Notes: generated by a model from the sequence alone, not told the origin. 64,000 bases of DNA from a virus (IMGVR_UViG_3300023707_000001); one strand, 5' to 3'. Numbered from the stretch's first letter, positions 33,144 to 48,421 are shown. Program-made: numbers and translations.

Positions 33144-33149
33144 CATAAT

Positions 33150-33236
33150 ATGGTGCGCCTAGCAAGACTTGAACTTGCACGGTATCACTACCAGGAGATT
33201 TTGAATCTCCCATGTCTGCCAATTCCATCATAGGCG
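33150..33236 (-). tRNA. tRNA-Leu(CAA), type II
   Basis: Acceptor GCGCCTA/TAGGCGC, anticodon arm GGAGA-TTCAAAA-TCTCC, variable hairpin GGTA-GTGA-TACC, CCA encoded. Confidence 0.75.
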
Positions 33237-33242
33237 CATAAT

Positions 33243-33319
33243 ATGGTGTGATTGGTGCGATTTGAACGCACGACCTGCCGCTTAGGAGGCGGCTGCTCTA
33301 TCCAACTGAGCTACAACCA
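33243..33319 (-). tRNA. tRNA-Arg(CCT)
   Basis: Acceptor GTGGTTG/CAATCAC, D-arm GCTCAGTTGGATAGAGC, anticodon loop CTCCTAA, T-loop TTCAAAT, CCA. Confidence 0.75.
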
Positions 33320-33325
33320 CATGAT

Positions 33326-33388
33326 ATGGAGGCTTGGGCCGGGATCGAACCGGCGTGAAACGGTTTTGCAGACCGTTGCCTAACCACT
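33326..33388 (-). tRNA. tRNA-Cys(GCA), 3' portion only (gene interrupted by the IscB element)
   Basis: AAGTGGTTAGGC-AACGGT-CTGCAAA-ACCGT...GCCGG-TTCGATC-CCGGC-CCAAGCC-T-CCA closely matches bacterial tRNA-Cys from the D-loop onward. The 5' acceptor strand GGCTTGG is missing locally and is found 1.6 kb away at 34994-35003. Confidence 0.55.
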
Positions 33389-33390
33389 TA

Positions 33391-33437
33391 AAACGCGGCG
33401 CGGGGGACTCCACCCTCTACAGAGTGGAGGTGAGCGC
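33391..33437 (-). terminator. nested GC-rich hairpin at iscB 3' end (terminator or IS right-end structure)
   Basis: gcggcgc-ggggga-ctccac-cctctacaga-gtggag-gtga-gcgccgc: a 7-bp outer and 6-bp inner stem. Confidence 0.35.
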
Positions 33438-34685
33438 CGCTTCTCTCCTTTCGACTAAATACGAATTATTATGCATCAAAAATGTTATTTTTGATGGTGC
33501 TACTTCAGCCTTAGTTCCGTCTAGGTGCTTTAAGACAAAAGAACCTTTGACTCTCATACCTCTCACAAACCAGCATTGCTTTTGATAAAACACTGTGTCA
33601 TTTAAGCAGAACCCCCGAACAATATGTCCGGCTTGTGCTCGCTTACGAACGCCGCCTTTTGCTGGCACTTCGCGATGCAACTTACGGTTATGCCGACGAA
33701 TTTGTTTACGAAGATATTCGTAGTTGAGCCGTTCTGCATTGATATTGCCCGCAATACAGTAGGCGTCTGCCGAATGTGTTTTTGTAATACCATTTTTGAT
33801 GCGAGTGTTTTTCGTGATGTAGCCGTATGTTAAATGCACATCAGGATATTGCTCTTTAAGCTTGTTGTAAAAAGCCCAACGCATAATTCCCATGAAAGTC
33901 GCGTCTCGGAATCTCATGCCACGATGTATTGTCTTCGGTAAAGAGATATTGCCTTGATGATATCCCTGATGGCAGGTTTCACAAAGCGTTATCAGGTTAT
34001 TCGGCGCATTGCCTCCAGTCATACGACTTTCAATATGATGTACATTGAGTATTGGGTCGCCAGAACTCCCTTTACAGCACTGACATTGATGACCATCACG
34101 GAATAATACGTATTCACGAACATTCGCCCATCCAAACTGTTCTCCCTGCTGATATTCGACCCCAGAAATATCAGGATTCTTGATTTTCTGAATATCGAAT
34201 TGAGCTACTTCTACAATAACTTTCGTTACCGGAAGAATCTTATGGATATCCGCCACAAGCTTTAGATGAACATTGATTTTGTTCTCCACGCTTGGCGCAA
34301 GCCAACCTTTGTGTTTACGGCGAACCCGATTCAAAAATCTTACTTTGCGATACCGTGTCTTGCGGTTCCGGCGACTGTGACGAAGTTCTAACCGTTTAGC
34401 CAAAAGCCTTACAATAGATGCTTTGCCATCACCAGAGCGCATAATCGTTTCTGAAGCATATAATTCTTGTTTCTCTGTTGATGCTGAGGCTCCGATATGT
34501 ACAGAGCCAGCATCAATACCAAGAGTTATTGGCTGTTTATAGCCAGCTGAGCCATATTTCAACTTAATTGTAAACGGCTCATATTTTACAACCATAGCTT
34601 TGTTTTCCCTCAGCAGCTTTCTAGCTTTCTGAGGTTTACAAGGCATTAACGGTTGTCCGTTTTTATTGATAACGTACACGAACAT
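33417..34685 (-). CDS. iscB: IscB (OMEGA RNA-guided nuclease, Cas9 ancestor)
   Basis: 422 aa with N-terminal PLMP domain (VINKNGQPLMPC), RuvC-I (LGIDAGS), Arg-rich bridge helix, HNH (CQCC...NVHHIESR...N..LCETCH) and RuvC-III. AGGAGG RBS 8 nt upstream. Confidence 0.85.
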   Translation of the reverse strand: MFVYVINKNGQPLMPCKPQKARKLLRENKAMVVKYEPFTIKLKYGSAGYKQPITLGIDAGSVHIGASASTEKQELYASETIMRSGDGKASIVRLLAKRLELRHSRRNRKTRYRKVRFLNRVRRKHKGWLAPSVENKINVHLKLVADIHKILPVTKVIVEVAQFDIQKIKNPDISGVEYQQGEQFGWANVREYVLFRDGHQCQCCKGSSGDPILNVHHIESRMTGGNAPNNLITLCETCHQGYHQGNISLPKTIHRGMRFRDATFMGIMRWAFYNKLKEQYPDVHLTYGYITKNTRIKNGITKTHSADAYCIAGNINAERLNYEYLRKQIRRHNRKLHREVPAKGGVRKRAQAGHIVRGFCLNDTVFYQKQCWFVRGMRVKGSFVLKHLDGTKAEVAPSKITFLMHNNSYLVERREAALTSTL

Positions 34686-34993
34686 AACGTGTACCTCCTT
34701 TCCGAAGCTGAAGCTTCAAATTAGAGTAAATCTACCCTTCGCCAATGTTGTAATCGCTTGCCCGCAATGGCGGGCCGTCCTTAGGTTGACCGTTCCTCCT
34801 CTCAGAACTTTTACAGAGCCTACACAGAGCGGGGAGCTAGGATAAACACCCACGGGTGTGATAACGAAAACAACGTAGTCCGAGGCTTTTTCAAGCACTT
34901 GTCTAATACCGGACTTAGGCTAGTCGGTAAGAGCTTGCTTTCGCAAGCTCCCGCCTTCAAGCGCAAAGCGCTAGACGGGGGTTATTGACTAGA
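34686..34993 (-). ncRNA. IscB omegaRNA (HEARO-like), 5' guide expected at the tRNA-Cys junction
   Basis: About 300 nt directly upstream of iscB, ORF-free and hairpin-dense (GGGAGCTTGC-GAAA-GCAAGCTC, ACACCCGTGGGTGT, GCCCGC-CATT-GCGGGC), running up to the tRNA 5' fragment. Confidence 0.6.
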
Positions 34994-35003
34994 CTACCAA
35001 GCC
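34994..35003 (-). tRNA. tRNA-Cys(GCA) 5' fragment (GGCTTGGTAG)
   Basis: Exact complement of the 3' acceptor strand CCAAGCC at 33329-33335; it sits directly after the array spacer CATAATAAGG. Confidence 0.4.
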
Positions 35004-35011
35004 ATAATAAG

Positions 35012-35160
35012 GGGCAGTGGCGGGAATCGAACCCGCAACCAGCATCACCTATAAACTGTTTGCAACCAGTGTTATAGGCATGTTCTGTTTTATATCGGCG
35101 CAACCATTTCGTTAAGAGTCCTGTTTGCAACCAGAAAACTTAATATAGCCGACACTGCCA
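35012..35160 (-). tRNA. tRNA-like gene with ~70-nt internal duplication (probable pseudogene)
   Basis: Acceptor GGCAGTG/CACTGCC and T-arm GCGGG-TTCGATT-CCCGC are 149 nt apart; the anticodon-like module CTGGTTGCAAACAG occurs twice. Confidence 0.3.
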
Positions 35161-35169
35161 TGATAATAT

Positions 35170-35245
35170 TGGTCGGGATGACAGAATTCGAACCTGCGGC
35201 CTCCTGCTCCCAAAGCAGGCGCTGCCACCACTGAGCTACACGCGG
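35170..35245 (-). tRNA. tRNA-Pro(TGG)-like, acceptor stem not complementary (possible pseudogene)
   Basis: D-arm TAGCTCAGTGGTGGCAGC, anticodon arm CCTGC-TTTGGGA-GCAGG, T-loop TTCGAAT and CCA are present, but 5' CCGCGTG does not pair with 3' CATCCCG. Confidence 0.4.
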
Positions 35246-35579
35246 ATGATAGATATCCGGTTCGCAGGGAGCTCGACTAAGCGGTTGCCCTTTGTAGATA
35301 TCTTCACTATGCATCTTATCCTCTCTTCGCCGCATCGAGTCGGGAGCTACACCTAACTCTTTGGATAATACGCATAAAAATATTCAACTCGATGTACATA
35401 ATAAAGTCCGGAAGGTGTCCCGGTCTTGCCCCGGCTACTCACTTTTGTTTTGAGCTTTTGCCGGTGCCGATATATGGCCATATGACTTGTCCGTATCTTT
35501 ATCATACGGGAAAAGCCGACGCCAATATACCAGCGTTCTTTTCCTTCATCGTCAGACGTTAGCCTGATTTTGAAGATGA

Positions 35580-35662
35580 TGGCAGGGGTAACTGGACTCG
35601 AACCAGTGTAAGTAAATCGGAGCTTCAAAGGCTCCCGCCTTAACCAACTTGGCTATACCCCT
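35580..35662 (-). tRNA. tRNA-Gln(TTG) with unusually long (11 nt) variable region
   Basis: Acceptor AGGGGTA/TACCCCT, D-arm GCC-AAGTTGGTTAA-GGC, anticodon arm GGAGC-CTTTGAA-GCTCC, T-arm ACTGG-TTCGAGT-CCAGT, CCA. Confidence 0.6.
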
Positions 35663-35667
35663 AAGAT

Positions 35668-35724
35668 GAGGGACGGCAGGGTTCGAACCTGCGACGCATT
35701 GCGCCCGCCTCTCAACGACCCCTC
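35668..35724 (-). ncRNA. ~57-nt anticodon-arm-less tRNA-like element (mini-tRNA)
   Basis: Acceptor-like stem plus intact T-arm GCAGG-TTCGAAC-CCTGC, with only about 23 nt between them. Confidence 0.3.
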
Positions 35725-35963
35725 ATAAGTGGAAGGCTGTATTCCTTTCGTGCACAGCACACCGAAGCACTACCCAGAATGTTATACTGTCTGAGCGCAG
35801 TTGTTTCTTGAACAATAGCTAAAAAGGCTTTCGCCCGTACAACTCTCAATCTTTATTAAGAGCTCTACGGGCGCCTGAACCGAAGTTCAGAGCGCTCGCT
35901 ATTTTGTTTGTTTCTTAGAAAAAGGAGAGGAACTTACAAGGCTTTCGCCTTGCTTATTCCATA

Positions 35964-35995
35964 TGGTGGACCCCCTCGGACTTGAACCGAGGACC
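35964..35995 (-). tRNA. tRNA 3' remnant (T-arm + acceptor 3' strand + CCA) abutting the HNH endonuclease gene
   Basis: CTCGG-TTCAAGT-CCGAG-GGGGTCC-A-CCA; no matching 5' half. The HNH gene's stop codon is 19 nt away. Confidence 0.4.
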
Positions 35996-36013
35996 CGCGT
36001 CCACTGATTTTGT

Positions 36014-36643
36014 TTATGCGCCATACTTTTCGTACGACTTTATCCATTTTGCTATGGCCTTACCAGAAACGCCATAGCGCCGTCCCATCTCAGATTTGTT
36101 GCGACCAACTTCTTCATACTCTTTGAAGAATTCTTCTTTCGTTGGACGCACCGTCTTTCTTGCCCAGGGACGTATATTTCCTAAGACCGCTTCATCGACA
36201 TCATAATGGTTACAGAATTTTTCTTTTTCCATCGCTTTTTTTGCAACTTTTTCTTCTGCTATACGAACTCTTTCTTTTAGTGGAACAATCCATTTTTCGT
36301 ATTCATTAAGTTTGTGCTGTCCTTTAGCATGTTCTTCGGCATGGCAGTTAGCGCAAAGAAGAACACATTTGTCTAATTCCTTTTTTAAGCGATGCCAGCC
36401 GAGATTGTATTTTTGTCCAATGCCAAAATTCTTTTGCTGGGGGTCGAGATGATGGAATACCAATGCATTTTCGCATTTATCGTATCCGCATACCTGACAT
36501 TTCCTGCCTTTGTACTTAACAGCTCTTTGTTTCAAAAGCTTTTTTCTATAGTTTTGTCTGCAAGTGTTACAAATGTCTTTTGAGTGTCCTTTACTGCGGC
36601 CATATTCATATTCATTGCCACAAACTTTACATACATATTTCAA
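36014..36643 (-). CDS. HNH homing endonuclease with C-terminal HTH
   Basis: HNH core VFHHLDP...N...LLCANCH with a flanking Zn-ribbon CKVCG...CNTC; C-terminal GRRYGVSGKAIAKWIKS helix-turn-helix. Confidence 0.7.
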   Translation of the reverse strand: MKYVCKVCGNEYEYGRSKGHSKDICNTCRQNYRKKLLKQRAVKYKGRKCQVCGYDKCENALVFHHLDPQQKNFGIGQKYNLGWHRLKKELDKCVLLCANCHAEEHAKGQHKLNEYEKWIVPLKERVRIAEEKVAKKAMEKEKFCNHYDVDEAVLGNIRPWARKTVRPTKEEFFKEYEEVGRNKSEMGRRYGVSGKAIAKWIKSYEKYGA

Positions 36644-36725
36644 TTCATATCACCGTAGGCAACATTACCTATTGTGTGAACTTAAAACATGATGTTAGTT
36701 CAAAAAGTGCTCACAAATTAATTAA

Positions 36726-36804
36726 TGGTCCAGGCGGTGGGACTTGAACCCACGTAAGACACGGCTTATAAGGCCGCCGCTACCACCAACTTAGCTACGC
36801 CTGG
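36726..36804 (-). tRNA. tRNA-Ile(TAT) (AUA decoder)
   Basis: Acceptor CCAGGCG/CGCCTGG, D-arm GCTA-AGTTGGTGG-TAGC, anticodon arm GCGGC-CTTATAA-GCCGT, T-arm GTGGG-TTCAAGT-CCCAC, CCA. Confidence 0.55.
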
Positions 36805-36810
36805 GTAAGG

Positions 36811-36850
36811 TGGACCCCTCAGGGCTTCTAACCAACTGAGCTAGGGGTCC
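36811..36850 (-). ncRNA. ~40-nt tRNA-like hairpin (acceptor stem + D-arm only)
   Basis: GGACCCC-TA-GCTCAGTTGGTTAGAAGC-CCTGA-GGGGTCC-A-CCA. Confidence 0.3.
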
Positions 36851-37113
36851 TTAATCGAGACGACATGGCATTTTGCCGTCTCTAGTGAGTTTTTTTGCTA
36901 ACGTCGGGAGTTCGCCTACTCCCTCGATACACCTATCGCGGTATTCTGCGCTTGACATCTATAACGGCCAGTCAAGTCTCCGGCAGGTTATGGTTTTCTG
37001 CATACCATTTCCGCACCTGGTTGCCTTGCAGGCTCTCATTTACCCTTTGTTTCAGTTAGATAATTGCGCACTCATCATTGCCTATTCCTCAGGGTAAACT
37101 AAAACGGATTCCT

Positions 37114-37141
37114 CCCCGCTGAGACGCTAACCTCGTTGGGG
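37114..37141 (+). promoter_or_regulatory. conserved hairpin, ACGCTAAC loop variant (cccc-gctgag-ACGCTAAC-ctcgtt-gggg)
   Basis: Member of a 5-copy family with invariant loop and covarying stems. Confidence 0.4.
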
Positions 37142-37706
37142 ACATGATATAAACGGGAATGTTGCTGCGGTAGCTGCAAATCCTACCGCAACTCCCGTGA
37201 TACTTTTACGAAGCTCGAAACGGAGGATGCCAACCCGTCATTCTACAGACTCGTCCTTTGCAGTGGACTACTGATGGCCCCTTTATTATATAATTGCGTT
37301 GATACCCGACTGTTAATGCAGTATCCTGGGGCATATAGCCGCCCGCTTTTTGGTTAGTATATGACTCTTCCCGACAGAGCATCATCAGCTAAGTGATGTC
37401 TTGGGGTTTATGTCTTGTCCTTGACAACCGGCTTTGCCTTGTCACGGCATCCCATGATGCTTGGTCTGTCATGGTATCCGCCGAAATCTAACCCTGTCAT
37501 TTCGGTAACTGATTTTCGTACAGTCATTTTTCAGGATGATCAGTCCTGCAATCAGGTTTACGCTGCTTTCTTACGCATAGCAGTAAATACGCGGCGCGGC
37601 AACGCCAATCACCTGTTGGCGCAGGTGTTTTTGCTGTTTCTCGTTCAGCTCCGACAGGTGAATTCAGGCCTGTCCAATTACGCTCTTGTCGCAACCAAGA
37701 GAGGTA

Positions 37707-37761
37707 TCTACTCTGCAGGAATCGAACCTGCTTCTTCCAAAAGGCCACCAGACCAGAGTAC
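37707..37761 (-). ncRNA. ~55-nt anticodon-arm-less tRNA-like element (mini-tRNA)
   Basis: GTACTCT...GCAGG-TTCGATT-CCTGC-AGAGTAG; the middle TCTGGTGGCC... is similar to the 41999-42053 copy. Confidence 0.3.
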
Positions 37762-38761
37762 ATGATATTAGATGCGATAACCGACTTTATAATTCTTCGT
37801 CATCAAGCCAATCTTGAAAACTCATTTTTATCCCCTTTTTAATAAATTACGCGGGCGGAACGACGGAAGTTCCCGCGTGAGGTGCTTTTCTTATCTTAAG
37901 GCGGCAGCACCCTTCCTGCTTGAAGTGCACATCGGCAGGTTATTGCGTTCGGCCGGACTGGCTTACATCTTTTACGCCCTAAACCCGTTGCAAACGTGGG
38001 CGGAGGATTTTTACTGCTTTACTGCAGGTTCTGAAGCTCTCTTGTCAATGTCCGTACGGACTTGCACCGTACACCTCCCCCTTACCGGGGTGCCACTACT
38101 GTTATGACTAAGTATTTGACCTCTACGTCGCCGGACTCTAACACGGCTATTGACTCCTGGGTGCGAGCTCGACATATTCACAGACGCTCCTGCTGTGATG
38201 GGTTTTAATGTCTTTTCCTTGACAATTTTATGGTTGTCACGATTTGGTGAATTTCGTGTGGCAGCACAATTTCCGCTTTTGACTGCAAAAGTCGATAAGC
38301 TTTATTTATCTGCCAATATCTTTTATGAGATTTGTTCATTGAAAGGATGCGGTCGTGAGCCGAAATCGCTTCATGCGCTTTAGCTATACCTGCATTAATA
38401 CTTTCGATTACTTGCTCCGGAAGTTTAGTCTGCATATCTCTCACCATCCTCTGGCAACGGCTGGCCGGTATATATTATGCCACCCACTTTGCCGCATTTA
38501 GGACAATCCCATTTAGCAAGCCATTCCCCCTGCTTGTGCACGGACAACCAACGGTGCATGCAATGCAGGCAGATTACTTCGGCCACTTCATGCGGACTGT
38601 TCTTTTCTTTGTACTCTTGTAAATCAATGACCTTGCTCATGTTCTATCTTCATCGTTCAACATAGATACAGCTCCAATCGCTATTGCCCCAATCATTACA
38701 AGGGCGAAAATTAACATAAAGCCTGCAAAGACACTATCTGCTGCCGTCATACTTACACCTC

Positions 38762-39319
38762 TTAATATCGTATCCTCTTATAAGCTAACCAGTCTGTGGC
38801 ACCCATGAATAAGTTTGCTATGCATTGTGCCGCGATACAATACTCTACACTAATCTGCGTAAAGATTATCGCGATTACGCTGCCTAATAGTGCCGCCGTC
38901 AGATTAACCGTTTTAGACAAGCTGTTCCATTTTGTCAATCTATCGCCCTCAATCTTATGATTGATTGCGTCATTTACCACAGTAAACCAAAGAGTTGATG
39001 ATACGGCATTTAAAACAGCTAAGCCTAAGAATCTGACTTCCGGGATTGATATGCCTTCAAAACTGATAAGCGCGAAACAGACAACATCTATTGCGATTAT
39101 CCATAAGAAGTGATGCCGATAAAAGTCTTTGAGTTTATCTGACTGGATAGATGCGTTTACGCCTGCCGCCAAAGCGGTGGTCAGAATATTGGCCATGGCC
39201 AAAACACTGGAACTTATCAGGCTTATAAAATATATGTGGATAATTGGCGATGTTGCTGAATAAACAAAGTCTACGACAGCAGTACCGCCGAGAAGGTATA
39301 ACTTTACTTTCTTTTCCAT
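38762..39319 (-). CDS. polytopic membrane protein (185 aa)
   Basis: Five to six hydrophobic helices. Confidence 0.45.
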   Translation of the reverse strand: MEKKVKLYLLGGTAVVDFVYSATSPIIHIYFISLISSSVLAMANILTTALAAGVNASIQSDKLKDFYRHHFLWIIAIDVVCFALISFEGISIPEVRFLGLAVLNAVSSTLWFTVVNDAINHKIEGDRLTKWNSLSKTVNLTAALLGSVIAIIFTQISVEYCIAAQCIANLFMGATDWLAYKRIRY

Positions 39320-39837
39320 TTATCTTTTATGCCTTTGCTTTCCAGATAGGCGATTACGCCTCTATCAAAAACCTCATAGTGTTTCTGGTCATACGGTCTT
39401 CTGTCACGTAACATTGCCGAATCGTGAGAAATGCCGATAATATTTCCGCCCGCTTTTTTACAAAAACGGTCATACATCTTCTCAATCGGGTTCCCAATTA
39501 CCACTGTCCATTCCAACTTGTGAAACCCTCTATCGACGAATAGATATTTTAAGAACTGGTAAAAGTCTTTTGAAAAAACAAGGTCACACTTGGGGCCATA
39601 GTTGATTACACTCATACTGGCCAGCCTGTTAAGCGTTTCGTCGACAGCTACGCTAAAATATCCATGTACATTGTCTTCTTTATCGACTGATACCATCTGG
39701 ATGTTATTCCAGGTATTCTTGTCAACAACAATCTCTGTTTCCCATCCACCGTAATACCACTTTGTGTTTGGGTTCATCCAGTTTGCACGGTCCGTTTTAC
39801 GGAGCGCGTCTTCGTAATCCATCGCAAAAGCTAACAA
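39304..39837 (-). CDS. hypothetical protein, possibly GNAT-fold acetyltransferase (177 aa)
   Basis: RGFHKLEWTVVIGNPIEKMYDRF resembles GNAT motif A/B; weak. Confidence 0.35.
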   Translation of the reverse strand: MLAFAMDYEDALRKTDRANWMNPNTKWYYGGWETEIVVDKNTWNNIQMVSVDKEDNVHGYFSVAVDETLNRLASMSVINYGPKCDLVFSKDFYQFLKYLFVDRGFHKLEWTVVIGNPIEKMYDRFCKKAGGNIIGISHDSAMLRDRRPYDQKHYEVFDRGVIAYLESKGIKDKWKRK

Positions 39838-39966
39838 AATATTTTCCCCTTTCTCATATCAGTTCATTAAGACAAATCTATAATCCGGTGCAAGCTTCCG
39901 GAAAACATTTCAATAGATTTGCCTTAATCAGCCGATATGGCTGATTTCTTAAGCTCCGTAATTTTC

Positions 39967-39996
39967 GTTCCTTTGAGACGTTAACCTCATCGGAAC
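39967..39996 (+). promoter_or_regulatory. conserved hairpin gttcc-tttgag-ACGTTAAC-ctcatc-ggaac
   Basis: Two-tier stem with invariant loop; lies 3' of the tmRNA candidate. Confidence 0.4.
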
Positions 39997-40003
39997 GGTG
40001 GCT

Positions 40004-40033
40004 GCCGCTTCAAGACGTTAACCTTGTCGCGGC
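40004..40033 (+). promoter_or_regulatory. conserved hairpin gccgc-ttcaag-ACGTTAAC-cttgtc-gcggc
   Basis: As above. Confidence 0.4.
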
Positions 40034-40035
40034 CG

Positions 40036-40433
40036 TGGAGACGACGGGAGTCGAACCCGTGTCCAAAATGCATCCACCTGTAAGACATTATCGCAATAGG
40101 CATTTTTAAGAGCGCCATTCTCTAGGGTGTAACCAGCCGAACAAAGCGTAATGGTCTACACCTCCACCACCTGCTTTTTCGAAAGCAGGAAAACTCCCCG
40201 TGTTGTTTACGTCGAGCGGGCCTCCTGACGTTTGCTGTGTTTATTTGAAACCTACCGCCCTGCTCACAGCTAGTGATACGATAGGGGCTAACCAATCTAC
40301 CTTACGGCAGATTAGGCAGCGAGACGATATTCAACTTCGTCAGTTAAATTTAGCGGTTAATGAGTTAGACGTCATAACCATCGGTCTGCGAATCTTACGG
40401 CTTCAACACCCTGTCGAAACCAATTTCGTCCCC
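40036..40433 (-). ncRNA. ssrA: tmRNA (ssrA) candidate, tag ending ...DEVEYRLAA
   Basis: 5' GGGGACGAAATTGGTTTCGACAGGG and 3' GGACACGGGTTCGACTCCCGTCGTCTCCA closely parallel E. coli tmRNA ends (GGGGCUGAUUCUGGAUUCGACGGG ... GGACGCGGGUUCAACUCCCGCCAGCUCCACCA). The acceptor pairs GGGGACG/CGTCTCC. An internal frame reads ...ACT GAC GAA GTT GAA TAT CGT CTC GCT GCC TAA. Confidence 0.65.
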
Positions 40434-41998
40434 ATATGACCCTTTCGGGTCAGGCTATTAAACGCTTTTACTGGTATGAAAGATGATGAAGTACCAGTGC
40501 AGGTTTTTAGTGCCCGAGATACAGCAGCACTGTGTCGGATTGACCCATCCAAGCTTTGGCAAATAACTGCCCGATACCTGGGGGGTAAGCTTTACCGATT
40601 TGAACGAGATTGCTGTCCCTGTCTTTGCTTACGAGGTCTAATAATAGCATGCTCCGCATTGCGCTATACGGAACAAGGTACTCCTTCCGCATTTGTCGCG
40701 AATGAGCTATGATACCCGAAAGGATAAGCAGTATCTGGAGAATTTGGAGATGGGTTAGTCTCCATGACCGAGTTCTCGCTTTTTTTTATGAATTCCTTTT
40801 ACGGCCGCCAAGTAACTTACTCACCCCGCAGGGGAGGCCCACATGTCTTTGGCGTTTACCGGATTACTGCCGTAGCCACCGGTTTCCCTGCTTAACCCTG
40901 TGCCAAGCAGTTATCTTATGCAGGTTTTATGTCGGTTCTTCCGACTCGGGCGGCTTATTACGTAGTGCCCTTACCCTACGCCGTTTTTCGCCTTGGAGGC
41001 TAAATCACCTTCGTGCCTGTTATTATCCTTAAGTTGATAAGCTGTGTACTTTAGCTCATCCAGATAAAAGTAATCCAGGTACGCTTGGCGCAACCTTGCT
41101 ACCACTGAACCGAGCTACCGTTTGTACTTTACGGCGTTATCGGGGTGGACCAGGTTTTATATTCTTCGGTATACCTCCACCGAAAGGAATGCCTTCGCGT
41201 CGTTATTCTGAGTGCTAAAAACCGTGGCCTTTAGTTCTTACTTCCTCAGCAATTGTCCGATAGCGAACGCTCCGATAAAGGTCATCTCTTCGGCTGTTGG
41301 CACCGGGTAATCGAGACGCCTGCACACAGCAGTGCGAACCCAAAAACGCGGTTGGCCTATTCTGGTTACAGCCAAGGGTAATGGAGCCCTTATCCCGGTT
41401 TAACCTACCGTGCCGGGCAAGGAAAGCTTTCGTGTCGTGGAACGCGGCCTTATCGCCTGTCCGGCATGCTCCTTTCGGGACATCCGGGGTCCACGGTGAC
41501 TCAAGCTGGCTGTCTATTTACGCGCTCGCAGCCATTGAACGCCCGATTCTTAGAACTTCGGAAAACCCGCGAAATATTCATGGAGCTGTTTAACGTGCTT
41601 TACACCTTCATCGTCGCGGAAGCTTGACCTCACGGGCTATCCTAAGCTTATACACACCCGATAGCCAATTGGTGCCCGATTTTAATATCGGGAAACATCT
41701 TGATGCCCGGCTCCCAAGGCAGCATCATGGATTTAACATCGCCTGTAAAGGTAGCGACCCTTTTACATTTCCGGCGCCCAATTGCGCACGGTGGAGATTG
41801 GATAAGCGCTCCTTGCAGGAATCGAACCTGCCTTATGTACTGGATTGGTTATCCAGTATAAGCATAGCTCCCAGAGTTGGAACATTATAGGCGCCTGATA
41901 TGCTTTTACCATCCCTCAGGCGGGGGATGCCACGTCTGGAAATCATTGTGGCACAATGTTTGTTCCGAAAAGATTGATCATTTCCCTCAGAACAATGT

Positions 41999-42053
41999 TG
42001 CTCAATACAGGAATCGAACCTGTCTACCGGCCGGTGTCCCCCAGACTTTGAGC
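41999..42053 (-). ncRNA. ~55-nt anticodon-arm-less tRNA-like element (mini-tRNA)
   Basis: GCTCAAA-GT-CTGGGGGACACCGGCCGGTAGA-CAGG-TTCGATT-CCTG-TATTGAGC. Confidence 0.3.
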
Positions 42054-42058
42054 ATGAT

Positions 42059-42129
42059 ACCCCCAAGAAGGATTCGAACCTTCGCCGCAAGCCGTAGCCT
42101 TACGAGCTCTGCCGGAGGAGCTTTGGGGA
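42059..42129 (-). tRNA. degenerate tRNA-like gene (pseudo-tRNA)
   Basis: Acceptor TCCCCAA/TTGGGGG, D-arm GCTC-CTCCGGCA-GAGC, T-arm GAAGG-TTCGAAT-CCTTC; no canonical anticodon arm. Confidence 0.3.
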
Positions 42130-42139
42130 TGTATGATAT

Positions 42140-42222
42140 AGGGGCAGGGAGGAATCGAACCACCATCATAAGAAAGCCCCATTTGCTTTCTCGTCCGCTC
42201 TAGCCATTTGAGCTACTGCCTC
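42140..42222 (-). tRNA. tRNA-like gene with 7-bp anticodon-like stem and non-canonical loop AAATGGG
   Basis: Acceptor GAGGCAG/CTGCCCC, D-arm GCTC-AAATGGCTA-GAGC, hairpin AGAAAGC-AAATGGG-GCTTTCT, T-loop TTCGATT. Confidence 0.3.
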
Positions 42223-43083
42223 ATTATGGGGGCGACTTGTTTTACATCCTGCCGCCTTCGGATATGCGGTCAACCGTTGCCTCTACCGCCAGGGGGAATT
42301 TATACGATTTTTTTCCTTATCGGGTTTTATCGTCTTTTCCTTGACACGTATGATACAATAGACATCGGCTGAGAATATCGTAAAAATACTTTATCTACCT
42401 TTCACAAAACATGCATAACAAATGCTCCTCACCGAGCATTCCTTGCTACTGGGCAAGCACGGTAGCAATACATGTAGGCCAGGTATGGGATAACAGCTCG
42501 CAATCTTGCAAAAGACCTCGCGACCTGCCCGCCCCGCTGAAGTTTTTCCAAAAAACTTAGAAAGGAAGATTTAGCCATGGAATTATCCTTGACTCCGGAG
42601 TTTTTCGACTCTTTGCGCGATGCGCTGTATGCCGTCGCACTCGTAGTTTTAGCGTTTAAGTCCTAATACTTGCATAAAACGATATTCCCGGCTATTTTTA
42701 TATCTATTGCATCATACCTGCCAAGGAGGCAGGTATTTTTTGATTGCTGCTCGTCTCAAACAGCTTGGCTACTCAGCGTCGGTGTAGCCTCTCGTGCCGG
42801 GTTTTAACGGCTTTTCCTTGCCGTTGCCCACGGTCGAACCGTGAAAGCCTTGCACCTATCCGGCTTGTCCTCTAGGGCCGGATGTACCGTATTTCTTTAG
42901 GCGTTCATACGGTGTCCTCATTGGAGACTTTCTACCACTGGCCAAGTTTCTTTCTGGGCGCTCCGGAGGCTTGCAGGAAGCGGTACAGCCTCTCTGCATT
43001 CTTTATTCGCTGCATGGTTCTCTTGGCAACCAGCAGTCAGGTCACGCATGTTTTATGGCCGACATTAGTGTCGGTCGCAAAAT

Positions 43084-43380
43084 TTAAAAATCTGAATCTC
43101 GCTCGTAAGTTTCCTCAATTTTATATGAGTGAATTTCTAAGCGATGTTCACCATCGTTGTAATACGCGCCATTGTCACAATCTTCAAGGCCGTATTCATT
43201 AACCCAGTCGTCATAGCATGCCTGGGCGGCTTCGGCGTTTGAAAAAACACCCATAACGTCCTGGTCATAATCATCGCATAAAGTTTGGTGAATAACCATA
43301 TATACTGTCATATTCTTCTCTCCTAAAACAGGATTCTCATAAGGTGGACGATATTCTATGGCCTCATCCGGGCCAGTCAC
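43084..43380 (-). CDS. hypothetical acidic protein (98 aa)
   Basis: Minus ORF inside the RNA-gene region. Confidence 0.4.
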   Translation of the reverse strand: MTGPDEAIEYRPPYENPVLGEKNMTVYMVIHQTLCDDYDQDVMGVFSNAEAAQACYDDWVNEYGLEDCDNGAYYNDGEHRLEIHSYKIEETYERDSDF

Positions 43381-43391
43381 ATGGAGGGGAT

Positions 43392-44036
43392 TTATTCAAA
43401 GCTGCCAAAACTAATAGTCGGAAACACTTCCTGGCGCATCTTTATTATCTGCTTTCGCTTTTCATCGAAATAAACAAGACAGTTTTCGGGAATACGGCCG
43501 ACTACCTCAAAAGTTCGCACGAAAGGCATTTCCAATAAACCTACGAATGGATTCTTCTCTCTTATATCAAGTGAACCCTCGTAAGATGTTCCCAGGATAA
43601 CCCATGTCTGCGCATCGGCAGTGATTTCGCTTTCCAGAATATCACGTACATCCTGTGTTGTTCCTGCGCTTGCGAATTCGTCAATGAACGTTACTGTGCG
43701 TCGTTTATCCGAACACAATGTAATCATATTGTGCTCATTGGGAACGATGTCGATTTGCGGATACTGTTTCTTGTAATCATCGCCAAGGACTTCTTTTAGA
43801 GTCCTTTCCATAAATTTGGAATGAACTATATAACCGCACTTAATGACAATGTGGTCAGCCATATCTTGGGATAAGATTTTCTTTACCGCATTGGCGATAA
43901 AAGTGGTTTTGCCAAAACGACGGTCTACGTTGATTGCTGTTATGCCGCCGTCGATAAGATTCGCCAATGGAATCTTATCAAACCAATCTCCAGCCCCATA
44001 GCTGCAAATAACTTGTTTTTCAAGACAATTGCTCAT
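43392..44036 (-). CDS. RecA-superfamily P-loop ATPase (RadB/KaiC/Sak4-like, 214 aa)
   Basis: G.GDWFDKI...LIDGGI...VDRRFGKTTF parallels the RecA/KaiC Walker A region; Walker B VTFIDEF. Confidence 0.5.
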   Translation of the reverse strand: MSNCLEKQVICSYGAGDWFDKIPLANLIDGGITAINVDRRFGKTTFIANAVKKILSQDMADHIVIKCGYIVHSKFMERTLKEVLGDDYKKQYPQIDIVPNEHNMITLCSDKRRTVTFIDEFASAGTTQDVRDILESEITADAQTWVILGTSYEGSLDIREKNPFVGLLEMPFVRTFEVVGRIPENCLVYFDEKRKQIIKMRQEVFPTISFGSFE

Positions 44037-44203
44037 TATATGCTACCTCAGTGTTTCTTACCAGTAGTAGCTACATAGCGGCCCATCAGCCAGCCGTTCA
44101 TAACCGGCGTATTTACCGTAGCGCAGCATTTTGCCTTGGGATAAAACAGGCTCTTACCAACTCTGCTTCCTTTTGTGTTGTTAGAATAAGTTTTTACCAT
44201 AGA

Positions 44204-44431
44204 TTAACCAAACCTTTCTATCAAAAAATTCATTATGTTTTTTATGAGGAAGCCAAGCGCCGGCCCTGCGATAAACACAACCACTGCAAGCACAATTGCT
44301 CCTTCATAAAGTTTTGAAGCTATTAATACAACAAGAAGTGTTGCAATAACCACTGCACAAGTTGCAACCAAGTAAGTTGCATACTCACATATTTTATCTA
44401 GTGTTTCTTCCGAGAAAAACAAGTTGAACAT
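44204..44431 (-). CDS. small membrane protein (75 aa)
   Basis: Two TM helices. Confidence 0.4.
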   Translation of the reverse strand: MFNLFFSEETLDKICEYATYLVATCAVVIATLLVVLIASKLYEGAIVLAVVVFIAGPALGFLIKNIMNFLIERFG

Positions 44432-44456
44432 TTTTATCTTTCTCCGTTATTTAAAA

Positions 44457-44542
44457 TGGAGCCCCCGGTCAGATTCGAACTGACGTGTCCTTTCGGAACC
44501 GGTTTACAAAACCGGTGCAATCGGCCTCTATGCGACAGGGGC
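44457..44542 (-). tRNA. tRNA-Thr(TGT) with 12-nt variable region
   Basis: Acceptor GCCCCTG/CGGGGGC, anticodon arm CCGGT-TTTGTAA-ACCGG, variable TCCGAAAGGACA, T-arm GTCAG-TTCGAAT-CTGAC, CCA. Confidence 0.6.
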
Positions 44543-44548
44543 GTAATA

Positions 44549-44624
44549 TGGAGCGGAAAACGAGACTCGAACTCGCGACACCCGACTTGGAAGGACGGTG
44601 CTCTACCAACTGAGCTATTTCCGC
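44549..44624 (-). tRNA. tRNA-Gly(TCC)
   Basis: GCGGAAA-TA-GCTCAGTTGGTAGAGC-A-CCGTC-CTTCCAA-GTCGG-GTGTC-GCGAG-TTCGAGT-CTCGT-TTTCCGC-T-CCA; near-identical architecture to bacterial tRNA-Gly. Confidence 0.8.
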
Positions 44625-44627
44625 AAA

Positions 44628-44703
44628 TGGCTCCCCGAGCTGGACTCGAACCAGCGACATATGGATTAACAGTCCACCGTTCTACCGGCTGAACTATCGG
44701 GGA
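44628..44703 (-). tRNA. tRNA-Asn(GTT)
   Basis: TCCCCGA-TA-GTTCAGCCGGTAGAAC-G-GTGGA-CTGTTAA-TCCAT-ATGTC-GCTGG-TTCGAGT-CCAGC-TCGGGGA-G-CCA. Confidence 0.8.
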
Positions 44704-44798
44704 AGGGCGTAGGCAGTTAGGTCATACCCAGGACCTATTCTGTTTCCCTCATATCAGGGCCGTTGTAAGCCGACATGAGTGGCCGAATAGTAACCATT

Positions 44799-44830
44799 CC
44801 TTAGTGTTGTTTCTTGCCGGACGTTAACCC
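44799..44830 (+). promoter_or_regulatory. conserved hairpin gtttc-ttgccgg-ACGTTAAC-ccggtt-cgaaac
   Basis: Lies 15 nt 3' of tRNA-Ser(GCT). Confidence 0.4.
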
Positions 44831-44844
44831 GGTTCGAAACATGA

Positions 44845-44936
44845 TGGCGGAGCCGGTTGGATTTGAACCAACGATACCCTATAATGGGTATAACACCTTA
44901 GCAGGGTGCCGCCTTAAGCCTCTCGGCCACGACTCC
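44845..44936 (-). tRNA. tRNA-Ser(GCT), type II
   Basis: Acceptor GGAGTCG/CGGCTCC, anticodon arm GCACC-CTGCTAA-GGTGT, long variable hairpin TATACCC-ATTA-TAGGGTATC, T-loop TTCAAAT, CCA. Confidence 0.75.
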
Positions 44937-45173
44937 GGTTGAGCAGTTATTTCATGCTCAGGAACTACTCTGTTTTCCAATTCTACCGACGGATTAAGGC
45001 AGTCTCGTGGCCGAATAGTAGCCATTTTTTGTCATTAAGACCGTCTGGGACTCAACAACATATATCTAATCCCTTTGCAGGGGATTATTCATAGAATACT
45101 GCATTTGGTACTTGGCTCAGGGGGGGTAATGATACCACGCTGCAGTGGGCGTCCAGGAAATTGTTAGCCTCTA

Positions 45174-45192
45174 ACCAGACGTTAACCTGGTG
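45174..45192 (+). promoter_or_regulatory. conserved hairpin aaccag-ACGTTAAC-ctggtg
   Basis: Fifth copy of the motif. Confidence 0.35.
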
Positions 45193-45316
45193 TTGGGCAT
45201 TATCAGGCGGCCGGCAATTTTTACATCCCTCGACCGCGAAGGATACCGCTTTCGCGGCACTACACGTAGTGTTGCGCCCAGTCGGTTGATCGGACCAACC
45301 GGACTAATATTAGCTA

Positions 45317-45391
45317 AGCCAATGCCAGGACTCGAACCTGGGTCGCCGAGGTTACAGTTTCGGTGCTCTCTCCCTATTGAGCTACATCGGC
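45317..45391 (-). tRNA. tRNA with 18-nt anticodon arm (8-nt loop; anticodon TGT or GTA ambiguous)
   Basis: Acceptor GCCGATG/CATTGGC, D-arm GCTC-AATAGGGA-GAGC, anticodon arm CCGA-AACTGTAACC-TCGG, T-arm CCAGG-TTCGAGT-CCTGG; no CCA encoded. Confidence 0.45.
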
Positions 45392-47120: not shown

Positions 47121-47186
47121 AATTATATACCATCTTGTTCTTAATGTCAAGAAAAAATCGTAAGAAAAAGTAAAAATTTTTCTTAA

Positions 47187-47614: not shown

Positions 47615-48421
47615 TTACGCGGCATCGATGGCACTCTGCATGCGTTTGCGGAGGTTGTTGCGCTCCTGTCGCAAAATGCGAAAAATGGTGGACATGGAAG
47701 CGTTGTATTTATCAGCAAGCTGTTTGACAGAATACTGCTTGGAGCTGTAATCCGCAAAGATTTCCGTAGCTTTTCCGCGTGCAGCAGACGGCTGGCTGGA
47801 ATGATGGCTTACCTTACGCTTTTTGTCCGTATTTACAACATTTGCCTGTACCTGCGCCTGGCTGTTTTCCGGAACAAAGCCGATTTTCTTAAGTTCTTCT
47901 GCGGCATCCAAGATAACCACTCCTCGGTTAATCGCGCGAACCAAATCGGTAATGTCCCCACCTTTTCCTGAAATTGGGTTAGTGTAGTCACCTTTTTCAT
48001 CAAGGACATACGGACCATTAATCGGGTCCTCACCTTTTTCTTCCGGGAACCTGACAAAGAAACCTTTGCCAATCTTGATTCCGGCGCTCATACAGGTGTT
48101 CCAGGCCTTCTTGGAAAGGACCGTGAATTCATCTGCTGTAGCTTTGTAGCCTTTTTCCTCAAGTTCACTCAGCGTTGCACCGCACAAGCCGTTGCCCCAA
48201 TACAGCAGCTGGTCAAACTTGCAGGCGTCGTTTACAATCTTATCCAGCATTGCCCCTGAAGCACAAAGAACAATGTCTTCTGCTTTGACGCCTTCCACGA
48301 TTTCTCCGTCTTTGCCGATAATGTTGTATTTGTTCTCGGCATAGTCGCAGGCATTAATCATACCTACAAAGGAATCGGGAAGATGCAGAACTACGTCATT
48401 AACCTCAAAAATGGTTTTCAT
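47615..48421 (-). CDS. protein with C-terminal helix-turn-helix (possible transcription regulator, 268 aa)
   Basis: C-terminal YSVKQLADKYNASMSTIFRILRQ is a typical HTH. Confidence 0.5.
   Translation of the reverse strand: MKTIFEVNDVVLHLPDSFVGMINACDYAENKYNIIGKDGEIVEGVKAEDIVLCASGAMLDKIVNDACKFDQLLYWGNGLCGATLSELEEKGYKATADEFTVLSKKAWNTCMSAGIKIGKGFFVRFPEEKGEDPINGPYVLDEKGDYTNPISGKGGDITDLVRAINRGVVILDAAEELKKIGFVPENSQAQVQANVVNTDKKRKVSHHSSQPSAARGKATEIFADYSSKQYSVKQLADKYNASMSTIFRILRQERNNLRKRMQSAIDAA

What the first reader, a model, noticed from the sequence alone, without database searches (positions are those of the whole stretch)
37114..45192. Five-copy hairpin with invariant ACGTTAAC loop and fully covarying two-tier stems, positioned 3' of RNA genes
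Copies lie at 37114-37141, 39967-39996, 40004-40033, 44799-44830 and 45174-45192. All have the same 8-nt loop ACGTTAAC (one copy ACGCTAAC), which contains a GTTAAC palindrome. Inner stems differ yet stay complementary (gag/ctc, caag/cttg, ccgg/ccgg, ccag/ctgg), and so do the outer stems (cccc/gggg, gttcc/ggaac, gccgc/gcggc, gtttc/gaaac). Compensatory change with a fixed loop argues for selection on structure plus loop sequence, i.e. an RNA or protein recognition element rather than a generic terminator. Four of the five lie immediately downstream in the minus-strand transcription sense of a tRNA or the tmRNA candidate.
Basis: seen in the sequence. Interest (0 to 1): 0.65.

Follow-up and report, generated by a model that had tools for sequence, protein, structure and literature searches.

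The report
Conserved RNA hairpin after phage tRNAs
An uncultivated giant phage from ruminant guts places a small, strongly conserved RNA hairpin, preceded by the same leader as its tRNA genes, right after many tRNA genes and after its tmRNA gene; it is most likely a cutting and end-protection signal for these RNAs, which is a new motif but an unsurprising kind of element.

Summary
The window holds seven copies, not five, all on the minus (tRNA-sense) strand between 35.5 and 45.2 kb. The two new ones are 35544-35575 and a GAAA-loop variant at 35929-35960.

The same element occurs in eight related jumbo-phage contigs. That gives 28 distinct sequences: 92% of stem cells pair (41-53% when partners are slid) and 94 cells show changes on both sides.

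G·U pairs show it acts as RNA in the tRNA sense. The "invariant 8-nt loop" is better read as two pairs (G·U, Y-G) closing a tetraloop. UAAC is the commonest tetraloop; UAGC, GAAA, AAAA and AAAU occur in relatives. The GTTAAC palindrome is incidental, since GTTAAC occurs at chance frequency in the window.

Every copy has the leader YAUCAU (U at -1 in 27/28), the same as the phage's tRNA 5' leaders. A fixed 12-layer helix follows. 22 of 74 tRNA/tmRNA genes, and 6/6 tmRNAs, are followed by a copy within 12 nt. No U-tract follows most copies, and no Rfam family matches.

Best reading (inferred, about 0.4): a tRNA-slot punctuation hairpin that directs an RNase P-like cut and caps the downstream RNA. 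It is a new motif of a known general kind.

The parts
45167..45198 (-). Hairpin copy 1. RNA sense: gcc/caac/ACCAG-GUUAACGU-CUGGU/uaga/ggc. Leader GAUAAU lies at 45199-45204. Its orthologue in L051 directly follows tRNA-Asp.
   Evidence: (36.2 bits, E 5e-8)
44809..44840 (-). Hairpin copy 2. RNA sense: guuuc/gaa/CCGG-GUUAACGU-CCGG/caa/gaaac. It starts 4 nt (UCAU) after the CCA of tRNA-Ser(gct), which spans 44845-44936.
   Evidence: (50.6 bits, E 2e-12)
40004..40033 (-). Hairpin copy 3. RNA sense: gccgc/ga/CAAG-GUUAACGU-CUUG/aa/gcggc. It starts 2 nt after the CCA of the tmRNA and is the first of a tandem pair.
   Evidence: (30.2 bits)
39966..39997 (-). Hairpin copy 4. RNA sense: cguucc/ga/UGAG-GUUAACGU-CUCA/aa/ggaacg. 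It is the second of the tandem pair after the tmRNA.
   Evidence: (46.7 bits, E 3.5e-11)
37113..37142 (-). Hairpin copy 5. RNA sense: ucccc/aac/GAG-GUUAGCGU-CUC/agc/gggga. Leader UAUCAU lies at 37143-37148. Its orthologues in L039/L043/L044/L047 follow tRNA-Ala.
   Evidence: (49.8 bits, E 4e-12)
35544..35575 (-). RNA sense: cuuca/aaa/UCAG-GCUAACGU-CUGA/cga/ugaag. It starts 4 nt (UCAU) after the CCA of tRNA-Gln, which spans 35580-35662.
   Evidence: (48 bits, E 1.4e-11)
35929..35960 (-). Hairpin copy 7, a variant apex. RNA sense: ggaau/aa/GCAAG-GCGAAAGC-CUUGU/aa/guucc. It starts 3 nt (UAU) after ...GGGGGUCCACCA, a tRNA-Met 3' fragment, and is followed by UCUCCUUUUUCU. Orthologues follow tRNA-Met in L039/L043/L044/L047/L051.
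   Evidence: 14.5 bits; -18.1 kcal/mol, z -5.4
40036..40433 (-). Phage tmRNA gene (tag DEVEYRLAA). Its 3' CCA abuts hairpin copy 3.
44845..44936 (-). tRNA-Ser(gct), the upstream partner of hairpin copy 2.
35580..35662 (-). tRNA-Gln(ttg), the upstream partner of hairpin copy 6.

Best explanation
The element is a cis-acting RNA module transcribed with the phage's tRNA/tmRNA island on the minus strand.

Anatomy, 5' to 3':
- An AU-rich leader YAUCAU, the same as the leader in front of the phage's own tRNA genes.
- A 12-layer helix: an outer stem of about 5 bp, a symmetric purine-rich 2x2 or 3x3 internal loop, and an inner stem of about 4 bp that ends in an invariant G-C.
- An apical cap made of a G·U pair, a Y-G pair and a tetraloop (mostly UAAC).

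The module sits in a "tRNA slot", directly after a tRNA or tmRNA CCA end where no further tRNA follows.

Proposed mechanism (inferred, not shown): the helix is handled like the acceptor/T-arm minihelix of a tRNA. An endonuclease cuts at the leader/helix junction; RNase P is the best candidate, with RNase E or RNase Y cutting in the AU-rich leader as the alternative. The cut would free the upstream tRNA or tmRNA with a trailer of only 1-6 nt, which exonucleases can trim. The stable hairpin would remain as a protective 5' cap on the downstream RNA, or be released as a small stable RNA.
For: Shown:
- (1) It is a real structured element under selection. In 28 distinct copies, 92% of cells pair against 41-53% for slid partners. 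There are 94 cells with changes on both sides and 9 of 12 pairs show such changes. 0/500 shuffles reach the observed values.
- (2) It acts as RNA in the tRNA sense. There are 65 G·U cells against 5 A·C cells in the pairs, or 19 against 5 without the two apical pairs.
- (3) Position. 23 of 32 copies lie at most 8 nt after a tRNA or tmRNA 3' end. Of 74 tRNA/tmRNA genes, 22 are followed within 12 nt by another tRNA, 22 by a hairpin and 30 by neither. 6/6 tmRNAs carry one.
- (4) Same leader as tRNAs. For the hairpins, A(-2) is 28/28, U(-1) 27/28, U(-4) 23/28 and A(-5) 24/28. For the 74 tRNA/tmRNA genes the leader is UAUYAU|G, with U(-1) 61/74 and A(-2) 58/74. Nine copies do not follow a tRNA. One of them is the second hairpin of the tandem pair, whose flank is AGCCAC. 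The other eight also end their 5' flank in A-U (YAU or AAU).
- (5) Fixed length. Exactly 12 nt separate U(-1) from the invariant closing G-C in 26/28 copies, even though the position and size of the internal loop vary. This equals the 7+5 bp acceptor/T-arm stack.
- (6) It is confined to the RNA island. There is no hit elsewhere in the 64-kb window. There is also none in about 250 kb of related phage DNA without tRNA arrays.

From the literature:
- Bacterial RNase P prefers U(-1). It cleaves hairpin-like non-tRNA substrates (pre-SRP RNA, phage C4 RNA, a hisCD hairpin whose cleavage is proposed to stabilise the mRNA) (PMC10731613).
- RNase P separates polycistronic tRNAs (PMC2190699).
- Simple stem-loops and t-elements are proposed as RNase P/Z signals for mRNA ends in plant mitochondria (PMC1920247).
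- The UAAC tetraloop is reported to stabilise hairpins (PMC4931119).
Against: - No cleavage data exist, so the nuclease and even the occurrence of cleavage are inference.
- The hairpins lack a 3' RCCA and a T-loop, two determinants used by bacterial RNase P.
- The 12 layers include 2-3 non-Watson-Crick layers.
- 30 of 52 array-terminal tRNAs have no hairpin, so it is not required for tRNA 3' maturation.
- The shared leader and fixed length could partly reflect descent from one founder copy. The alignment used for the length count was also fitted to the model.
- A pure processing or cap role does not explain why the apical 12 nt (RGGUUAACGUCY) stay nearly identical while the stems turn over in the window's clade.
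- The host is unknown, so its RNase repertoire is unknown.
Confidence: 0.4

Rival explanations
1. The hairpin is a sequence-specific binding site for a phage or host protein that reads the apical module (RGG-UUAAC-GUCY with its G·U pair). Candidates are a dedicated endoribonuclease, an RNA chaperone or a regulator. The stems serve only to present the apex.
For: The apical 12 nt are nearly identical in 15 or more copies whose stems differ completely. The closing G-C is invariant (28/28), and the G·U is kept in 25/28 rather than being replaced by a Watson-Crick pair. The purine-rich symmetric internal loop is a common protein-docking feature.
Against: In the same slots, relatives carry GAAA, AAAA, AAAU and UAGC apices. 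One example is the orthologue of the 44821 copy in L033/L048, which has nearly identical stems but GUAAAUGU. No candidate binding protein was identified: neighbouring ORFs have no informative Pfam or PHROG hits. This rival is not exclusive with the processing model.
Confidence: 0.2
2. The hairpin is a transcription terminator, pause or attenuator that ends stable-RNA transcription units without a canonical U-tract. It would depend on a factor or be specific to a particular polymerase.
For: It lies where bacterial tRNA operon terminators lie, immediately after the last CCA. The tRNA-Met-associated variant (35929-35960 and its orthologues) is followed by a U/C-rich run, UCUCCUUUUUCU. The stems are stable, at -10.8 to -18.1 kcal/mol.
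Against: Six of the seven window copies have no U-run within 10 nt. None is called by the terminator scan. The 44821 copy is followed about 105 nt later (44809 to 44703) by three more tRNA genes, and the scan lists no promoter-like site between them. The conserved 5' leader and fixed 12-nt length are not terminator properties.
Confidence: 0.15
3. The loops form loop-loop kissing complexes through the GUUAAC palindrome. This would bring hairpins, or whole transcripts, together.
For: GUUAAC is self-complementary. The two variant loops in the window, GUUAGC (37124) and GCUAAC (35556), are exact reverse complements of each other. Two copies lie in tandem after the tmRNA.
Against: L039 and L051 carry GCUAAC without a GUUAGC partner in the DNA seen. 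Family members with GAAA, AAAA or AAAU apices are not palindromic. All loop changes at positions 2 and 8 are U-to-C, which strengthen intra-loop 1-8 and 2-7 pairs. That leaves only a tetraloop exposed.
Confidence: 0.05
4. The element is a DNA-level signal: a target of an HpaI-like restriction-modification system or methyltransferase, a target of a homing endonuclease, or a single-strand DNA hairpin used for recombination or priming.
For: GTTAAC is the HpaI site. A DNA methylase (17293-18222), an HNH homing endonuclease (36014-36643) and an IscB are encoded in the window. Gene content between the tRNAs is highly variable among relatives.
Against: GTTAAC is neither depleted nor enriched, at 18 observed against 16.9 expected. 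Variant copies lose the palindrome. The 65 G·U cells would be A·C mismatches on the other strand, so duplex or cruciform symmetry is not conserved. The tight link to CCA ends and the tRNA-type leader argues for RNA. Single-strand DNA of the sense strand cannot be formally excluded.
Confidence: 0.05

Closest known systems
Non-tRNA hairpin substrates of bacterial RNase P (pre-4.5S/SRP RNA, phage P1/P7 C4 RNA, hisCD intercistronic hairpin) and tRNA minihelix model substrates
   Same: It is a helix of tRNA-arm length preceded by a single-stranded leader with U at -1. It sits in a polycistronic transcript. The hisCD case is proposed to stabilise the downstream mRNA (PMC10731613).
   Different: There is no 3' RCCA and no T-loop. 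The helix is interrupted by a purine-rich internal loop. The element is multi-copy with a conserved apex. Cleavage has not been shown.
t-elements and acceptor-stem-like stem-loops of plant mitochondria
   Same: They are tRNA surrogates placed at gene boundaries and proposed to direct RNase P/Z cuts that make transcript ends (PMC1920247).
   Different: t-elements keep a GGTTCRANYCC T-arm and a partial cloverleaf. This hairpin has neither: ARAGORN and Rfam tRNA models do not hit it.
Phage T7 RNase III processing sites (R1.1 type), from my own knowledge
   Same: They are repeated two-tier hairpins with an internal loop that punctuate a phage polycistronic transcript and leave a protective hairpin at an RNA end.
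   Different: T7 sites have about 20 bp or more of helix and an asymmetric internal loop. Here there are only 12-14 layers with a symmetric loop, which is short for RNase III. The T7 sites are not linked to tRNAs.
Intrinsic (Rho-independent) terminators after tRNA operons
   Same: It is a stable hairpin immediately after the last CCA. One variant is followed by a U/C-rich run.
   Different: Most copies have no U-tract. They have a conserved 5' leader, a fixed length, internal mismatches and a conserved apex.
Intercistronic stabiliser hairpins with special tetraloops (T4 CUUCGG hairpins, REP elements), from my own knowledge
   Same: They are small, very stable tetraloop hairpins in phage or bacterial intergenic RNA that are thought to protect RNA ends.
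   Different: Those are defined by the loop or by stem sequence. They are not tied to tRNA slots or to a tRNA-type leader.

Membership tests
Intrinsic terminator | Run of U within 0-2 nt after a G+C-rich stem | tested here: not met
   Six of seven window copies lack it, and the scan does not call them. Only the tRNA-Met-type variant has a UCUCCUUUUUCU tail.
tRNA / t-element (tRNA-like structure) | Cloverleaf or at least a T-arm with GGTTCRANYCC | tested here: not met
   ARAGORN and the Rfam tRNA model do not hit the hairpins. The apex GUUAACGU cannot be put in T-loop register (sequence inspection).
RNase P minihelix-type substrate | About 12-bp coaxial helix downstream of the cleavage site | tested here: met
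   There are 12 nt from +1 to the invariant closing G-C in 26/28 copies. However, 2-3 of the layers are purine-purine mismatches.
RNase P minihelix-type substrate | Single-stranded 5' leader with U at -1 | tested here: met
   U(-1) is 27/28 and A(-2) is 28/28. The consensus is the same as for the 74 tRNA/tmRNA leaders.
RNase P minihelix-type substrate | 3' RCCA and a T-loop contacted by the S-domain | tested here: not met
   The 3' flanks show no CCA consensus. The apex is a tetraloop, not a T-loop.
RNase P minihelix-type substrate | Actual cleavage at the leader/helix junction | not testable with these tools
   This needs an in vitro RNase P assay or 5'-end mapping.
RNase III processing site | About 20 bp or more of double-stranded RNA (two helical turns) | tested here: not met
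   The element has 12-14 layers including mismatches.
MITE / longer dispersed repeat | Copies share extended flanks and stems identical by descent | tested here: not met
   Flanks beyond about 44 nt do not align. The stems differ and covary.
Any Rfam 15 family | Score at or above the gathering threshold, or a credible E-value | tested here: not met
   No match overlaps the hairpins apart from the tmRNA models running into copy 3.
Type III toxin-antitoxin antitoxin repeats (considered for the tandem pair after the tmRNA) | Identical tandem direct repeats followed by a ToxN-like toxin gene | tested here: not met
   The two copies differ in both stems. Relatives have a single copy. The downstream 177-aa ORF has no ToxN, Pfam or defence hit and matches only an unknown PHROG.
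Restriction/modification target (HpaI-type GTTAAC) | Site frequency departs from expectation, and the palindrome is conserved | tested here: not met
   There are 18 observed against 16.9 expected. The palindrome is lost in many family members.

The most novel reading that the evidence does not exclude
These hairpins are a previously undescribed class of pseudo-tRNA punctuation marks in the stable-RNA islands of jumbo phages. They would be a minimal, ruler-length minihelix that recruits the tRNA 5'-processing machinery, or a phage-encoded nuclease that reads the conserved G·U/UAAC apex. This would separate tRNAs and tmRNA from interspersed mRNAs and set the stability of the mRNAs. It would be a bacterial-virus counterpart of the mitochondrial tRNA-punctuation and t-element system.
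Probability: 0.2. Interest if true: 0.65.

Novelty: new variant of a known kind. Interest (0 to 1): 0.45.

Why it matters
Large phages carry long tRNA arrays and tmRNA genes interleaved with small protein genes. How such mixed transcripts are cut and stabilised is essentially unstudied.

A compact 44-nt module shares the tRNA leader and the tRNA-arm length but has no tRNA features. It would give a directly testable handle on how these transcripts are processed. It could also serve as a portable processing or stability tag.

It also adds a well-supported new RNA motif, with strong covariation across 28 distinct copies, that is absent from Rfam.

If it turns out to be only a stabilising hairpin, it is ordinary biology.

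Tried and rejected
- A pattern scan of IMG/VR for CCA-UCAU-N-GGTTAACGTC gave 22 hits. All were chance matches without two-tier stems or tRNAs.
- A conserved tmRNA 23-mer scanned against IMG/VR found only one related contig.
- Megablast and blastn against GenBank phages found no relative: only a 58-nt tRNA-Asn match, and nothing for the tmRNA plus hairpins.
- Relatives found through the ORF at 39304-39837 (L001-L003) and the more distant Band_7 relatives (L030-32, L034-37, L049, L050, L052, L053) have no tRNA array near the anchor and no hairpin. L035 has tRNAs but no hairpin.
- The protein at 47615-48421 gave no related loci.
- Readings of the apex as a T-loop, anticodon-loop or D-arm mimic were tried by hand and fail on register.
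- An integron attC reading was rejected, because the conserved bases are in the apex, not at the stem base.
- BHB and K-turn readings were rejected, because the internal loop is symmetric.
- Small self-cleaving ribozymes were rejected: there is no Rfam hit and the element is too small.
- Type III toxin-antitoxin repeats were rejected (see the membership test).
- Promoter scans were uninformative, with 23 sites against 25 expected.

Full report
**1. What is in the sequence**

The five reported hairpins are present at the stated coordinates, with the stems described. ACGTTAAC occurs five times on the + strand against 1.47 expected, and 0/100 shuffles reach five. The fifth occurrence, at 61894, has no flanking complementarity and lies inside an ORF.

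All tRNA genes, the tmRNA and most ORFs of the window are on the minus strand. In RNA sense the loop therefore reads GUUAACGU.

A scan for the loop with up to 2 mismatches plus a stem found a sixth clean copy at 35544-35575. Its loop is GCUAACGU, and it starts 4 nt after the CCA of tRNA-Gln.

A covariance model built later added a seventh copy at 35929-35960. It has the same two-tier architecture with a GCGAAAGC apex. All seven copies take the two-tier fold as their minimum-energy structure, at -10.8 to -18.1 kcal/mol.

With filters off, the model finds nothing else above noise in the 64 kb on either strand.

**2. Where the window comes from, and its relatives**

- The window has no close relative among GenBank phages.
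- The same DNA occurs in ENA metagenome assemblies.
- The Band_7 protein next to the tRNA array (31536-32417) has homologues of 67-93% identity on contigs of 180-334 kb. These contigs carry phage replication genes.
- Two such contigs are binned in ruminant-gut MAGs.
- This is therefore a family of uncultivated jumbo phages. tRNA arrays and tmRNA genes are already known to occur in huge phages (PMC7162821, listed; only its title and abstract start were seen).

**3. The element is conserved, with covarying stems**

Hairpins with the same apex and different stems occur in L039/L041, L043, L044, L045/L046, L047 and L051. Hairpins with the same architecture but other apices occur in L033/L048.

An ungapped alignment of 20 copies (A3) gave these values:

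| Measure | Proposed structure | Controls |
|---|---|---|
| Cells paired | 91.7% | 39-54% (slid partners) |
| Cells with changes on both sides | 61 | about 19 (shuffles) |
| Shuffles reaching the observed value | 0/500 | - |

A model-based alignment of 28 distinct copies (A5) gave 92.0% cells paired against 41-53% for slid partners. There are 94 cells with changes on both sides, in 9 of 12 pairs.

Layers 5-6 (sometimes 5-7) from the apex are almost never pairable. They are purine-rich: A·A, A·G, G·A and A·C.

Flanks beyond the 44-nt module do not align between paralogous copies, so this is not a MITE or a longer repeat.

**4. Strand and molecule**

The pairs contain 65 G·U cells and only 5 A·C cells. 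Leaving out the two apical pairs, the counts are 19 and 5. On the opposite strand, or in duplex DNA, the G·U cells would be mismatches. The constraint therefore acts on the tRNA-sense strand, most simply as RNA.

**5. The "invariant 8-nt loop" re-read**

Loop sequences across the 28 copies of alignment A5:

| Loop | Copies |
|---|---|
| GUUAACGU | 11 |
| GUUAGCGU | 4 |
| GCUAACGU | 4 |
| GCGAAAGU | 3 |
| GUAAAAGU | 2 |
| GUAAAUGC | 2 |
| GUAAAUGU | 1 |
| GUUAGCGC | 1 |

Weaker hits outside that alignment carry GUGAAAGU and GCGAAAGC.

Positions 1-8 and 2-7 are always pairable: G·U 25 and G-C 3; U·G 21 and C-G 7. The only changes at those positions are U-to-C, which strengthen the pair.

The simplest description is a stem that continues through a G·U pair and a Y-G pair, closed by a tetraloop (UAAC, UAGC, GAAA, AAAA or AAAU). 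UAAC is reported as a hairpin-stabilising tetraloop, and UNAC loops have been compared with GNRA loops (PMC4931119 and its reference to Zhao et al. 2012).

The GTTAAC palindrome is thus a by-product of GU + UAAC. It is lost in many members, and GTTAAC itself is at chance frequency in the window (18 against 16.9).

Even so, in the window's clade the 12 apical nucleotides RGGUUAACGUCY are far more constant than the stems. This remains only partly explained.

**6. Context**

- Of 32 copies, 23 begin at most 8 nt after a tRNA or tmRNA 3' end.
- Of 74 tRNA/tmRNA genes in eight contigs, 22 are followed within 12 nt by the next tRNA, 22 by a hairpin and 30 by neither. All six tmRNA genes carry one, and the window has two in tandem.
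- For the window copies at 37124 and 45179 no tRNA is called directly upstream. Their orthologues follow tRNA-Ala and tRNA-Asp in relatives.
- No copy was found in about 250 kb of related phage DNA lacking tRNA arrays.

**7. Two features that point to a mechanism**

First, the six bases 5' of the helix are conserved as YAUCAU: A(-5) 24/28, U(-4) 23/28, A(-2) 28/28 and U(-1) 27/28. This matches the consensus 5' leader of the phage's own tRNA and tmRNA genes, UAUYAU|G, where U(-1) is 61/74 and A(-2) is 58/74. Nine copies do not follow a tRNA. One is the second hairpin of the tandem pair, with flank AGCCAC. The other eight also end their flank in A-U. The leader therefore belongs to the hairpin unit.

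Second, the distance from U(-1) to the invariant closing G-C is exactly 12 nt in 26/28 copies. This holds although the internal loop is 2x2, 3x3 or 4x4 and sits at different heights. Twelve layers is the length of the acceptor/T-arm stack of a tRNA.

The hairpin thus looks like a stand-in for a tRNA in the array: same leader, same arm length, but no tRNA features.

**8. What it is not**

- Intrinsic terminator: most copies have no U-run, and the scan does not call them. The tRNA-Met-type variant does have a U/C-rich tail and may terminate.
- RNase III site: the helix is too short.
- Rfam family: none matches.
- Restriction-modification or homing target: excluded by sections 4 and 5.
- Kissing loops: the reverse-complementary pair GUUAGC/GCUAAC in the window is suggestive. 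However, L039 and L051 have GCUAAC without a partner, and many members are non-palindromic.

**9. Most likely mechanism (inference)**

The module is a processing and end-protection signal. An endonuclease cuts at the leader/helix junction. RNase P is the best candidate because of U(-1), the shared leader and the 12-layer ruler. RNase E or RNase Y cutting in the AU-rich leader is the alternative.

The cut would leave the upstream tRNA or tmRNA with a trailer of 1-6 nt for exonucleolytic trimming. The hairpin would cap the 5' end of the downstream RNA.

Precedents from the literature:
- RNase P separates polycistronic tRNAs (PMC2190699).
- RNase P prefers U(-1) and cleaves hairpin-type non-tRNA substrates, including a hisCD hairpin whose cleavage is proposed to stabilise the mRNA (PMC10731613).
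- Plant-mitochondrial t-elements and plain stem-loops are proposed as RNase P/Z signals (PMC1920247).

Weak points:
- There is no RCCA and no T-loop.
- Non-canonical layers interrupt the helix.
- 30 of 52 terminal tRNAs lack the element.
- The conserved apex is not explained by this model.
- There are no cleavage data.

I put this reading at about 0.4. A sequence-specific protein site stands at about 0.2 and is compatible with the processing model. An atypical terminator or pause stands at about 0.15, and the kissing-loop and DNA-level readings at about 0.05 each.

**10. Verdict**

It is partly wrong: the invariant palindromic loop and the methyltransferase link.

It is a new, well-supported RNA motif of a known general kind, namely a cis-acting processing or stability hairpin. 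Interest is moderate.

Noticed in passing
window 33417-34989 (-): An IscB-type gene (RRXRR + HNH, 422 aa, 33417-34685) sits next to a HEARO/omega RNA (34726-34989; Rfam 83.7 bits against a gathering score of 83) inside the phage tRNA island. In relatives L039/L041 a 428-aa homologue lies on the other side of the Band_7 gene. This suggests recent mobility.
   Followed up: partly
window 35964-36848 (-): tRNA-Met appears disrupted. A 5' remnant (GGACCCCUAGCUCAGUUGGUUAGA..GGGGUCCACC) lies at 36810-36848. The intact 3' part lies at 35964-35999. Between them lie tRNA-Ile (36726-36804) and an HNH homing-endonuclease ORF (36014-36643; PHROG 2255, E 7e-29). Neither ARAGORN nor Rfam calls this tRNA-Met.
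   Followed up: partly
window 32900-45350: Many T-arm-like GGAATCGAACC / GGTTCGAACC segments lie where no tRNA is called, for example 33325-33354, 35007-36, 35678-98, 37708-33, 41808-33, 42000-25 and 42069-89. The island probably holds more tRNA-like or degenerate tRNA genes and other structured RNAs than the callers report.
   Followed up: no
window 37402-37426, 38200-38224, 42322-42346, 42799-42823: A 25-nt motif, read on the minus strand as (U)GUCAAGGAAAAGACNUUAAAACCC, occurs in four copies inside the RNA island. Two of them lie about 100-130 nt upstream of RNA genes. It could be a phage-specific promoter or regulatory site.
   Followed up: partly
window 39926-39946 (-) and orthologous sites in L039, L043, L044, L045: A perfectly palindromic 8-bp hairpin, AAUCAGCC-AUAUC-GGCUGAUU, is conserved about 20 nt downstream of the tmRNA-associated hairpin in all relatives. 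No U-tract follows it.
   Followed up: no
whole window: GATC-containing 6-mer palindromes are very rare. They are expected to be rare as well, which means GATC itself is depleted: CGATCG 0, AGATCT 1, GGATCC 1, TGATCA 2. ACGCGT (0 against 5.0), GCTAGC (0 against 4.1), GGTACC (0 against 3.4) and CCTAGG (0 against 2.9) are also missing. This suggests restriction avoidance.
   Followed up: no
L039 6994-7086, L043 7206-7298 and 7515-7591, L044 7032-7124, L051 11796-11872: Relatives carry suppressor-type tRNAs (anticodons UUA and CUA) in the same island. This hints at stop-codon recoding in this phage family. The window has a tRNA with an odd anticodon loop at 45317-45391.
   Followed up: no
window 47122-47150 (-): A perfect sigma-70 consensus promoter (TTGACA-17-TATAAT) lies upstream of the RNA island on the transcribed strand. 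It argues for host RNA polymerase use and for a host that is not a Bacteroidetes.
   Followed up: no
window 5162-6223 (+): An ISL3-family transposase gene (Pfam DDE_Tnp_ISL3, E 2e-49) lies on the strand opposite to almost all other genes. It is an insertion sequence inside the phage genome.
   Followed up: no
window 44778-44800 and 45007-45030; L051 about 4880-4910: A repeated segment, on the + strand GTGGCCGAATAGTARCCATT, lies downstream of two hairpin copies. Its neighbouring sequences (CGGCCACUNAUNUCGGCUNACAA; GGNCGCCCACNGCAGCGNGG) are conserved in L051. This suggests further small structured RNAs next to the hairpins.
   Followed up: no
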